From: Candidatus Omnitrophota bacterium
Lineage (GTDB): Bacteria; Omnitrophota; Gorgyraeia; Gygaellales; Profunditerraquicolaceae
Reading direction: 5' to 3'
NCBI GenBank assembly: GCA_041650795.1
Contig: JBAZKK010000002.1
Location: forward strand, 10,731 to 74,730
DNA: 64,000 nt
This document shows positions 54,653 to 55,881 of this stretch, piece after piece (position 1 is the first letter of the stretch; each line of letters opens with the position of its first letter). Both the position numbers and the translations under genes were made by a program. Under the pieces are notes generated by a model, which saw only the letters and a list, made by a program, of their open reading frames with translations, ran no database searches and was not told the DNA's origin.

Positions 54653-55881
54653 TACCTACTTTAAGAGAGGTTCCGCAGGAAGCGGAATCGGTGAGCCATC
54701 AATTGATGCTGCGCGCAGGATTGGTGCGCATGCTCTTTGCCGGCGTTTATTCCTATTTGCCTCTGGGTTGGAGGGTTTTGAGGAATATCGAAGAGGTTGT
54801 CCGTCAGGAGATGGAGGCTGCCGGCGCCTCCGAATTGCTGCTGCCGGCCTTACAGCCTCTGGAGCTCTGGCAGCGTTCAGGCCGGGATAAGGATATGGGG
54901 GATGTAATGGTGCGTTTTACGGACCGCAGAGGAAGAAACCTTTGCCTTGGGCCCACCCATGAAGAGGTCATTACGGAGCTCGCAAAGAATCATATTTCTT
55001 CCTATCGCCAATTGCCGCTGGTGTTATACCAGATCCAGACTAAATTCCGCGACGAGATACGGCCGCGCTTCGGTCTGGTGCGGGCCTGCGAGTTTATTAT
55101 GAAGGACGCCTATAGTTTTGACAAGGATGAAGCGGGACTGGATAAGAATTACCAGGCGATGTATGAGGCCTATCAGCGTATCTTCAGGAGGTGCGGTTTG
55201 GATTGCCTGGCGGTTGAGGCAGACTCCGGGGTTATGGGAGGAAAGGTCTCGCACGAATTTATGGTTACGGCCCGGGACGGAGAGGATGCGGTATCGGTCT
55301 GCCCTCAATGCCGCAGGGCATACCCCTTTAATGAAGGCGTAGATTCCGCCTGCCGCGATTGCGGTTTTAACCTAAGCAAGGTTAATGCCATAGAAATAGG
55401 CCATATCTTTAAATTAGGAACCAAATACACCAAGACCTTGAAGGCCGATTTTCTTGATGAAGCAGGCAGGCTTAACCCTATTGTGATGGGTTGTTACGGT
55501 ATCGGGGTCTCCCGCCTTATCTCTGCCGTTATTGAGCAGAATAACGACAAAGACGGGATTATCTGGCCGCTTGAGATTAGCCCTTATAGAGTGCTTATCC
55601 TGCCGCTGGACGTTACCGACGGAGTCATTATGCAGAAGGCCCGTGAGGTTTACGAAGAGCTGGGCAGATTGGGCGTTTCCGTGTTGCTCGATGACCGCGA
55701 TGAGCGCGCTGGGGTTAAATTCAAGGATGCGGATTTGTTGGGGGTATCCCTACAGGTAATTATCGGCAAGGAATCTTTGACGAAGGAGATGCTGGAGTTT
55801 AAGGAGCGCCGCGGAAATAAAAAGAGCTCCGATACCAAGGCAGCAGTTATAAAACGCATCAAGGATACCATTAATGTATAG
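54631..55881 (+). CDS. proS: Prolyl-tRNA synthetase, bacterial type, lacking the INS editing domain (a four-Cys mini-insert takes its place)
   Basis: Class II motifs ([34 protein letters not shown]). At 416 aa it is well short of bacterial-type ProRS enzymes that carry an INS domain, as I recall them. [23 protein letters not shown] lies between motifs 2 and 3. Confidence 0.85.
   Translation: [416 protein letters not shown]

What the first reader, a model, noticed from the sequence alone, without database searches (positions are those of the whole stretch)
55270..55380. Bacterial-type ProRS with the INS editing domain replaced by a four-Cys mini-insert
The proS product is 416 aa with clear bacterial-type class II motifs. 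Between motif 2 ([25 protein letters not shown]) and motif 3 (GCYGIGVSR), where bacterial ProRS normally carries the INS editing domain, there is only a short segment. It contains CPQC...(14 aa)...CRDC (Cys codons at 55300, 55309, 55351 and 55360), a zinc-ribbon-like pattern. INS-less bacterial-type ProRS enzymes are known (for example in some alpha-proteobacteria), but I do not recall a Cys4 knuckle at this site. Loss of INS predicts dependence on a free-standing Ala-tRNA(Pro) deacylase (ProXp-ala/YbaK-type), or a tolerance of mischarging.
Basis: partly seen in the sequence, partly recalled or inferred. Interest (0 to 1): 0.55.

Follow-up and report, generated by a model that had tools for sequence, protein, structure and literature searches.

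The report
ProRS without editing domain, zinc-knuckle remnant
This Omnitrophota prolyl-tRNA synthetase has lost its built-in proofreading domain but kept the small four-cysteine, probably zinc-binding clasp that brackets that domain in most related bacterial enzymes; this is a real but recurrent and already-described kind of reduction.

Summary
proS (54631-55881, +) encodes a 416-aa bacterial-type ProRS. About 29 residues (223-251) stand where solved ProRSs carry the ~180-aa INS editing domain. All four Cys are invariant in 120/120 Omnitrophota homologues, although the rest of the insert is the most variable part of the protein.

The Cys4 element is not a new replacement for INS. In 79 INS-containing cluster representatives the same four alignment columns are C-C-C-C, with INS sitting between Cys2 and Cys3. 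The two CxxC pairs are kept or lost together: 101 representatives have both, 45 have neither, none is mixed.

Solved bacterial ProRSs with INS carry the degenerate S/S/S/G form. Omnitrophota genomes show a reduction series: INS plus knuckle, knuckle only (this gene), and neither.

The same layout has been noted for human mitochondrial ProRS (a CXXC-flanked 34-aa cluster) and described as a "cysteine-rich ProRS insertion module" left as a "scar" of editing-domain loss.

No YbaK/ProXp-type gene lies in the window. The trans-editing prediction cannot be tested on 64 kb. Verdict: new member of a known kind, low interest.

The parts
54631..55881 (+). proS: 416-aa bacterial-type prolyl-tRNA synthetase without an INS editing domain
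   Evidence: ORF list. NCBIfam PRK09194 scores 586.8 bits against a cut-off of 558, and TIGR00409 scores 556.9 against 306.7. Pfam finds tRNA-synt_2b at residues 96-304 and HGTP_anticodon at 321-412. The best fold matches are bacterial ProRS structures, e.g. 2i4n_B with E=7e-40 and TMq 0.82.
55045..55119 (+). Class II motif 2 (residues 139-163, [25 protein letters not shown])
   Evidence: Read from the translation. Nearly every position is invariant in alignment A1.
55297..55383 (+). 29-residue insert (residues 223-251) at the INS insertion point; a Cys4 zinc-ribbon-like knuckle
   Evidence: This stretch is the gap in the alignment to P. aeruginosa ProRS residues 231-412. There is a weak Pfam hit to zf-Tbcl_FmdE (E=6e-4, below the cut-off). 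AF2 pLDDT for blocks 221-230, 231-240 and 241-250 is 90, 72 and 89, with short strands on both sides of each knuckle. A model of the fragment alone has zinc-ribbon proteins among its best Foldseek matches (Rpb12 and a Zn-ribbon module rank highest), but none is significant (E>=0.26).
55300..55311 (+). Knuckle 1: C224-P-Q-C227
   Evidence: TGC at 55300 and 55309. Invariant in 120/120 homologues. Aligns with the CxxC that precedes INS (C..C.YAAN) in INS-containing ProRSs, and with 'S-x-x-S' in the E. faecalis, S. aureus and P. aeruginosa structures.
55351..55362 (+). Knuckle 2: C241-R-D-C244
   Evidence: TGC at 55351 and 55360. Invariant in 120/120 homologues. Aligns with the CP.CG that follows INS in INS-containing ProRSs, and with 'SPDG' in the solved structures.
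55489..55515 (+). Class II motif 3 core (residues 287-295, GCYGIGVSR)
   Evidence: Read from the translation. Invariant in alignment A1.
55591..55866 (+). Anticodon-binding domain (residues 321-412)
   Evidence: Pfam HGTP_anticodon, E=8.7e-16.

Best explanation
The gene encodes a working bacterial-type ProRS of a Candidatus Omnitrophota bacterium that has lost its cis-editing INS domain.

The residues left between motifs 2 and 3 are the ancestral Cys4 knuckle. It is a two-hairpin, zinc-ribbon-like clasp rising from two neighbouring strands of the catalytic sheet. In most related ProRSs the INS domain is nested inside it, between Cys2 and Cys3.

The four Cys most probably bind one structural Zn2+ that pins the two hairpins together. 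In INS-bearing enzymes this would fix the base of the editing domain. Here it is a retained structural remnant, with a 13-residue loop where INS used to be.

The enzyme therefore aminoacylates tRNA(Pro) but cannot clear Ala-tRNA(Pro) in cis. Proofreading must either be done in trans by a YbaK/ProXp-ala-type protein encoded elsewhere, or be dispensed with.

What is shown: the architecture, the conservation, the homology of the knuckle with the INS-flanking CxxC pairs, and recurrent INS loss. What is inferred: Zn binding, a purely structural role, and the editing consequences.
For: (1) Architecture.

(2) The four Cys are invariant in 120/120 homologues while the surrounding residues vary freely.

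(3) Among the 150 nearest 50%-identity cluster representatives, the same four MAFFT columns read CCCC in 79 INS-containing proteins and 31 short ones. Each INS-containing example carries C..C.YAAN before INS and CP.CG after it. P0123, one such representative, has a Pfam tRNA_edit domain between the two knuckles.

(4) The pairs are all-or-none: 101 representatives have both, 45 have neither, none has one. Counting Cys at the four columns gives 4 in 101 representatives, 2 in 2, 1 in 11 and 0 in 36. The four residues therefore act as one unit even when about 165 residues apart.

(5) In the E. faecalis, S. aureus and P. aeruginosa ProRS structures the four positions align as S, S, S, G (YStESDYAAN ... 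GDPSPDGxG), a degenerate form of the same element.

(6) Genomes labelled Omnitrophota show all three states. L035, L037 and L051 have INS plus Cys4. Many, including the window, have the knuckle only. L012, L013, L014, L020 and L023 have neither. These sequences form one NJ clade (64% bootstrap). The knuckle-less forms L012-L014 sit inside a 99%-supported subclade of knuckle-only forms.

(7) L022 keeps both knuckles around a 69-aa INS remnant, while its relatives L075 and L078 have full INS.

(8) Fitch parsimony on an NJ tree of the representatives puts INS plus Cys4 at the root and needs about 26 changes of INS state.

(9) The literature describes the same remnant (PMC4299715; PMC10810186).
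Against: Metal binding is not demonstrated for any bacterial-type ProRS. No solved structure carries the Cys4 form. The fold evidence for a zinc ribbon is only suggestive: Foldseek E>=0.26 on a fragment model with pLDDT 62. Absolute conservation of four Cys across a whole clade that has lost INS could mean more than a passive scar. The NJ and Fitch trees have weak deep support, so the number and order of losses is approximate. The 150 representatives are those nearest the query, not an unbiased sample of ProRS.
Confidence: 0.8

Rival explanations
1. The retained knuckle has a function of its own in INS-less enzymes. It might contact the tRNA(Pro) acceptor end, or serve as a docking site for a free-standing ProXp-ala/YbaK editing protein, and so not be a passive remnant.
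For: The four Cys are strictly invariant in 120/120 homologues although INS is gone. The authors of the PARS2 paper speculate that the equivalent CXXC-flanked cluster, which carries the S279L Alpers mutation, interacts with a trans-editing factor (PMC4299715). The knuckle emerges next to the proline-binding loop and the active-site strand IEIGHIF.
Against: Five Omnitrophota species representatives, plus a Ratteibacteria and a Margulisiibacteriota genome, have deleted the knuckle completely (16-22 residues between HEFM and IE.GH). Three of them nest among knuckle-bearing relatives, so the knuckle is dispensable for an essential enzyme. The residues between and around the Cys are highly variable, which argues against a specific binding surface. 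No editing-family gene is linked to proS in any INS-less locus.
Confidence: 0.12
2. The Cys4 site is not a structural zinc site. It would instead be a rubredoxin-like iron site or a thiol/disulfide redox switch that tunes ProRS activity in these anaerobes.
For: CPxC...CPxC knuckles can bind Fe as well as Zn (general knowledge of rubredoxin-type knuckles). In the representatives whose taxa could be named, the Cys4 form came from MAGs or isolates of Oscillospiraceae, Elusimicrobiota, Myxococcota and Leptospirillum. The solved enzymes from E. faecalis, S. aureus and P. aeruginosa carry Ser or Gly instead.
Against: There is no direct evidence. The same C+/C- dimorphism is typical of structural Zn ribbons, for example bacterial ribosomal proteins (own knowledge). 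The best fold matches are Zn ribbons of RNA polymerase, TFIIE and DNA polymerases.
Confidence: 0.05
3. One reading: a newly acquired four-Cys mini-domain took the place of INS in this lineage.
For: Within the window alone one sees only a short Cys4 segment where INS is expected.
Against: The same four columns are Cys in 79 INS-containing representatives, with INS between Cys2 and Cys3. INS-bearing Omnitrophota enzymes (L035, L037, L051) already have the knuckle.
Confidence: 0.02

Closest known systems
Human mitochondrial ProRS (PARS2) / 'ProRS-M'
   Same: A bacterial-type ProRS without a full editing domain. [quoted passage not shown]
   Different: It is eukaryotic and organellar. Douglas et al. 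place ProRS-M as a separate family from bacterial INS-less forms. The window enzyme sits in a bacterial (Omnitrophota) clade next to INS-bearing Omnitrophota enzymes, so its loss is independent.
Alpha-proteobacterial 'mini-INS' ProRS (R. palustris 2i4l; C. crescentus)
   Same: A bacterial-type core with INS truncated. It is the best Foldseek match (2i4n_B, E=7e-40, TMq 0.82, 43% identity). In C. crescentus editing is done in trans by ProXp-ala (PMC3973320).
   Different: The window enzyme fails the dedicated NCBIfam model PRK12325 (506.2 bits against a cut-off of 550). The R. palustris insert is about 52 residues and HMMER did not align it to the knuckle. INS-less representatives such as P0146 and P0177 (taxon not determined) have S/S/S/G at the four positions, so they carry no metal ligands.
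INS-containing bacterial ProRS with Cys4 (e.g. Oscillospiraceae MBE7048339.1 = P0126; P0123-P0125)
   Same: These are the nearest non-Omnitrophota relatives, at 53-57% identity. They have the same four Cys columns and the same core.
   Different: They carry the ~165-aa tRNA_edit (PF04073) domain between Cys2 and Cys3. The window enzyme has 13 residues there.
Leptospirillum ferrooxidans C2-3 ProRS (WP_014450103.1, 420 aa)
   Same: INS-less with a Cys4 knuckle (CSSC-x14-CPVC) in a cultured organism with a complete genome. The dxr-rseP-ispG-proS gene order is the same.
   Different: It is about 50% identical and lies in a different part of the NJ tree, so it represents an independent loss.
Class Ia synthetases (IleRS, ValRS, LeuRS-A) with the editing domain nested in a zinc finger
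   Same: The topology is the same: a post-transfer editing domain inserted inside a Cys-rich knuckle whose ligands are not always conserved (PMC10810186).
   Different: This is an unrelated fold and synthetase class. The comparison is an analogy, not homology.

Membership tests
Bacterial-type ProRS (ProRS-B; NCBIfam PRK09194 / TIGR00409 proS_fam_II) | Sequence passes the curated equivalog model | tested here: met
   PRK09194 scores 586.8 bits against a cut-off of 558. TIGR00409 scores 556.9 against 306.7. Both match in two stretches split at residue ~230.
Bacterial-type ProRS (ProRS-B; NCBIfam PRK09194 / TIGR00409 proS_fam_II) | Class II motifs 2 and 3, followed by a C-terminal HGTP anticodon-binding domain with no C-terminal zinc domain | tested here: met
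   Motifs read from the translation. Pfam finds tRNA-synt_2b and HGTP_anticodon, and the protein ends at residue 416, right after the anticodon-binding domain.
Bacterial-type ProRS (ProRS-B; NCBIfam PRK09194 / TIGR00409 proS_fam_II) | INS (YbaK-like, PF04073) editing domain between motifs 2 and 3 | tested here: not met
   No PF04073 hit. A 29-residue segment stands in place of ~182 residues. An INS HMM built from 111 INS segments finds nothing in any window ORF; the best E-value is 4.2. INS is typical of the family but known not to be universal (PMC3973320).
Alpha-proteobacterial mini-INS ProRS (NCBIfam NF008979 / PRK12325) | Sequence passes the curated model | tested here: not met
   506.2 bits against a cut-off of 550.
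INS-less ProRS retaining the cysteine-rich ProRS insertion module (as in PARS2 / ProRS-M) | Short (~30-36 aa) segment between motifs 2 and 3, flanked by two CXXC motifs, with no editing domain | tested here: met
   Residues 223-251 contain C224xxC227 and C241xxC244. The description comes from PMC4299715 and PMC10810186.
INS-less ProRS retaining the cysteine-rich ProRS insertion module (as in PARS2 / ProRS-M) | Phylogenetic membership in the mitochondrial ProRS-M clade | not tested
   No PARS2 sequence could be obtained. The window enzyme groups with Omnitrophota ProRSs, so membership in ProRS-M proper is unlikely.
Zinc ribbon fold | Two CxxC knuckles, each at the turn of a beta-hairpin | tested here: met
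   The homologue consensus is CPKC...CPKC. DSSP on the AF2 model gives strands 219-223, 230-232 and 249-263, and single bridge residues at 240 and 247, around the two knuckles, with pLDDT 72-90.
Zinc ribbon fold | Significant structural or profile similarity to known zinc ribbons | tested here: inconclusive
   Pfam zf-Tbcl_FmdE scores E=6e-4 but falls below the gathering score. The PDB sequence hits 3d00 and 2akl have E=0.38 and 0.62. Zn-ribbon proteins rank highest among the Foldseek matches of the fragment model, but all have E>=0.26.
Zinc ribbon fold | One Zn2+ bound by the four Cys | not testable with these tools
   This needs metal analysis or a structure. The indirect support is the 101/0/0/45 all-or-none pattern of the two pairs.
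Trans-editing-dependent ProRS system (ProRS + ProXp-ala/YbaK) | A free-standing PF04073 protein encoded in the same genome | not testable with these tools
   None was found in the 64-kb window: Pfam on 20 ORFs of 105-253 aa and the INS HMM on all six-frame ORFs. None lies within +-10 kb of proS in any INS-less locus. The HMM did find a free-standing 161-aa homologue in L061 at E=3e-13, which serves as a positive control. Whole genomes could not be searched.

The most novel reading that the evidence does not exclude
In INS-less ProRSs the retained Cys4 knuckle would not be a scar. It would be a functional module, either a zinc- or redox-dependent clamp over the active-site entrance or the docking point that recruits a free-standing Ala-tRNA(Pro) deacylase. 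That would explain why all four Cys stay invariant after INS is gone, and why a disease mutation maps to the equivalent cluster of human PARS2.
Probability: 0.1. Interest if true: 0.55.

Novelty: new member of a known kind. Interest (0 to 1): 0.22.

Why it matters
For this window, very little: it is a normal housekeeping proS of a reduced-genome phylum.

The wider picture that emerged may interest synthetase specialists modestly. In many bacterial-type ProRSs the class II editing domain is nested inside a Cys4 knuckle. The knuckle's two halves are kept or lost strictly together. No solved structure contains the Cys form. Omnitrophota display every step of the reduction: INS plus knuckle, knuckle only, and neither. 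That gives a natural set of variants for testing what the knuckle does. It also bears on the human PARS2 cluster that carries the S279L Alpers mutation.

The window enzyme also predicts trans-editing or tolerated Pro-to-Ala mistranslation in these organisms. That prediction remains open.

Tried and rejected
- **Chance or artefact.** Rejected: 120 independent metagenomic homologues have the same length and the same four Cys.
- **New insert replacing INS.** Rejected by the alignment with INS-bearing enzymes.
- **Trans-editing gene in the window.** Pfam on 20 ORFs of 105-253 aa and an INS-derived HMM on all six-frame ORFs found nothing. The same HMM on 80 genome loci found only ProRS INS domains and one free-standing homologue next to an INS-bearing proS in Caloramator.
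- **Whole-genome search for ProXp-ala/YbaK in Omnitrophota.** Not possible. The tools return only +-10 kb around a hit, and protein searches cannot be restricted by taxon.
- **The look-up of encoding contigs** for the window protein and for P0001 returned nothing.
- **Fold search of the isolated knuckle.** It gave only non-significant hits, and the isolated-fragment model is of low confidence (pLDDT 62).
- **tRNA(Pro).** There is no tRNA gene in the window.
- **Literature searches** for zinc in bacterial ProRS found only the two passing descriptions cited. PMC387263, PMC4999995 and PMC13629369 say nothing about this site. [quoted passage not shown]

Full report
**The observation**

The ORF at 54631..55881 (+) encodes a 416-aa protein. 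TGC codons lie at 55300, 55309, 55351 and 55360, which gives C224-P-Q-C227 and C241-R-D-C244. Motif 2 (residues 139-163) and motif 3 (residues 287-295) read as quoted.

Pfam finds the class II core (residues 96-304) and the HGTP anticodon-binding domain (321-412), but no editing domain. There is one sub-threshold hit to a treble-clef zinc-finger model at 218-244. NCBIfam places the protein in bacterial proS: PRK09194 scores 586.8 bits against a cut-off of 558, in two stretches that break at residue ~230. The alpha-proteobacterial mini-INS model PRK12325 is not passed (506.2 against 550).

Against P. aeruginosa ProRS, residues 4-222 align with 12-230 and residues 252-398 align with 413-561. About 29 residues therefore occupy the place of the ~182-residue INS. 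The best fold matches of an AF2 model (mean pLDDT 71) are the five bacterial ProRS structures, led by INS-less R. palustris ProRS.

**Is the Cys4 pattern real?**

The 120 best homologues are 67-100% identical and 413-430 aa long. Those that carry a name are labelled Candidatus Omnitrophota or Omnitrophica. All 120 have CxxC-x12-17-CxxC, and 105 of them have a spacing of 13.

In their alignment the four Cys columns have zero entropy. The other insert positions average 2.19 bits, against 0.84 for the whole protein. Selection therefore acts on the Cys themselves, not on the surrounding surface.

**What the element is**

I searched the 1.84-billion-protein representative library and looked at the 150 nearest 50%-identity representatives. 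Most are 560-600 aa and carry INS. Yet most carry C..C.YAAN just before INS and CP.CG just after it.

In a joint MAFFT alignment, the columns of C224, C227, C241 and C244 read C-C-C-C in 79 INS-containing proteins and 31 short ones. One INS-containing example, P0123, has a Pfam tRNA_edit domain between the two knuckles.

Across the representatives the two pairs are strictly all-or-none. Both are intact in 101, neither in 45, and one alone in none. Counting single Cys at the four columns gives 4 in 101 representatives, 2 in 2, 1 in 11 and 0 in 36. These counts are not phylogenetically independent. Even so, parsimony on an NJ tree needs about 25 changes of the Cys4 state.

An INS-containing Cys4 representative (P0124) aligns end to end with the solved E. 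faecalis, S. aureus and P. aeruginosa enzymes. Its four Cys face S, S, S and G there (YStESDYAAN ... GDPSPDGxG). Those three enzymes therefore carry a degenerate, ligand-free form of the same element. No solved structure shows the Cys4 form.

The conclusion is that INS is nested inside a Cys4 knuckle in many bacterial-type ProRSs. The window enzyme has kept the knuckle and lost INS.

**Direction of change**

A scan of GTDB species representatives gave 80 loci. Among genomes labelled Omnitrophota there are three states:

| State | Loci | Segment |
|---|---|---|
| INS plus Cys4 | L035, L037, L051 | ~195-aa segment |
| Knuckle only | the window, L003, L004, L006, L009, L010, L017-L019, L021, L024, L031 | 39-46 residues from HEFM to the conserved Glu |
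| Neither | L012, L013, L014, L020, L023 | only 16-22 residues between HEFM and IE.GH |

In an NJ tree of the core, with the insert excluded, 26 sequences form one clade with 64% bootstrap support. They comprise the window enzyme, 19 loci labelled Omnitrophota and six loci with other or no phylum label. Inside it, a 99%-supported subclade of 16 holds the window enzyme, with the knuckle-less L012, L013 and L014 nested among knuckle-bearing sequences. Deeper nodes are weakly supported.

L022 (a Nitrospirae MAG) keeps both knuckles around a 69-aa remnant, while its relatives L075 and L078 have full INS.

INS-less Cys4 enzymes also occur in Leptospirillum ferrooxidans C2-3 (WP_014450103.1), Elusimicrobiota and Myxococcota. 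The Leptospirillum gene sits in the same dxr-rseP-ispG-proS order as in the window.

The simplest reading is repeated reductive loss: INS goes first, and in some lines the knuckle follows.

**Fold and metal**

In the full-length AF2 model the knuckle has pLDDT 72-90. DSSP gives strands at 219-223, 230-232 and 249-263, and single bridge residues at 240 and 247, around the two CxxC turns.

A model of the 59-residue fragment alone is weaker, with pLDDT 62. Its best Foldseek matches include many zinc-ribbon or zinc-knuckle proteins: Rpb12, a Zn-ribbon module, PolD, PolC, TFIIE, Nop10 and the MetRS knuckle. None is significant (E>=0.26). Sequence hits to FmdE and PhnA-type zinc ribbons are also insignificant.

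Zinc binding is thus a well-founded inference, resting on the motif type, the all-or-none pairs and the predicted hairpins. It is not a demonstrated fact.

**Function**

The knuckle rises from the two strands that follow the proline-binding loop ([12 protein letters not shown]) and precede the active-site strand [10 protein letters not shown]. A structural clasp at the base of INS is the most economical role.

Three observations argue against a specific binding function:
- Several Omnitrophota relatives have deleted the knuckle completely.
- Its non-Cys residues are the most variable in the protein.
- One relative (L007) tolerates a 17-aa insertion in its loop.

The invariance of the Cys keeps a more active role possible. 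I give that about 0.1.

**Editing**

Without INS the enzyme cannot edit Ala-tRNA(Pro) in cis. The literature links INS-less bacterial ProRSs to the free-standing ProXp-ala (PMC3973320).

No such gene lies in the window. Pfam on 20 ORFs of 105-253 aa and an HMM of 111 INS segments on all six-frame ORFs (best E=4.2) both found nothing. None lies within +-10 kb of proS in any INS-less locus. The same HMM did find a 161-aa free-standing homologue in Caloramator at E=3e-13, which shows it can detect such genes.

A 64-kb window says nothing about the rest of the genome. The prediction stands untested.

**Comparison with what is known**

Sofou et al. (PMC4299715) noted that human mitochondrial ProRS lacks a full editing domain. 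[quoted passage not shown] They speculated that it interacts with a trans-editing factor.

Douglas et al. (PMC10810186) list a 'ProRS' insertion module, a beta-hairpin followed by a loop of 32-36 aa. [quoted passage not shown] They also note that the class Ia editing domain is nested within a zinc finger, which is a close analogy.

The window enzyme is therefore a new bacterial member of a known kind, not a new architecture. It is not a member of the alpha-proteobacterial mini-INS subfamily, because it fails that model's cut-off.

**Verdict**

The novelty class is 'new member of a known kind', with interest about 0.2. Two things add residual value. The Omnitrophota reduction series offers natural variants for study. 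And the Cys4 form of the ProRS knuckle, although widespread, has never been characterised experimentally.

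Noticed in passing
window 55874-55881; protein P0121: The proS stop codon (55879-55881) overlaps the rimP start (ATG at 55874) by 8 nt. A database relative, P0121 (583 aa), is a single ORF joining an INS-less Cys4 ProRS to RimP N- and C-terminal domains. It is either a real fusion or a frameshift artefact.
   Followed up: partly
window 51307-61423: The genes dxr, rseP, ispG, proS, rimP, nusA, infB, trpS and scpA form a tightly packed run on one strand, with overlapping stop and start codons (rseP/ispG by 4 nt, ispG/proS by 22 nt). 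The dxr-rseP-ispG-proS order is the same in Leptospirillum ferrooxidans (L001).
   Followed up: partly
L012, L013, L014, L020, L023 (Omnitrophota); L032 (Ratteibacteria); L034 (Margulisiibacteriota): These ProRS genes have lost both INS and the Cys4 knuckle. Only 9-22 residues remain between HEFM and the IE.GH strand, which may be the most reduced bacterial-type ProRS cores.
   Followed up: partly
L022:582-1913 (Nitrospirae bacterium CG1_02_44_142): This ProRS keeps both knuckles around a 69-aa remnant, a partial INS deletion. Its close relatives L075 and L078 have full INS. The INS HMM still gives a weak hit (E=2.8e-4).
   Followed up: partly
L007:10001-11299 (Omnitrophota): A 17-residue extra insertion (TPLEKSYPDEHSSLTGY) sits in the loop between the two knuckles, so the loop tolerates insertions.
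   Followed up: no
L070 (MAG labelled 'archaeon isolate DeMMO3_27'): This MAG carries a bacterial-type, INS-less, knuckle-less ProRS at 45% identity to the window enzyme. Possible causes are mis-binning, horizontal transfer or a wrong label.
   Followed up: no
L061:3188-3670 (Caloramator proteoclasticus): A free-standing 161-aa INS/YbaK-family ORF lies ~1.3 kb upstream of an INS-containing proS (E=3e-13 against the INS HMM). It is an example of cis and trans editing genes side by side.
   Followed up: no
P0206 (1401 aa): This single predicted protein has an INS-containing Cys4 ProRS at residues ~850-1401. It is preceded by a metallo-beta-lactamase hit, a sub-threshold AAA-type ATPase hit and a DUF234 hit. 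It is either an odd fusion or a gene-calling artefact.
   Followed up: no
window 9797-10387 and 19344-20080: Small conserved ORFs of unknown function lie elsewhere in the window (DUF3786, DUF1805 and UPF0047). They are unrelated to the finding.
   Followed up: no
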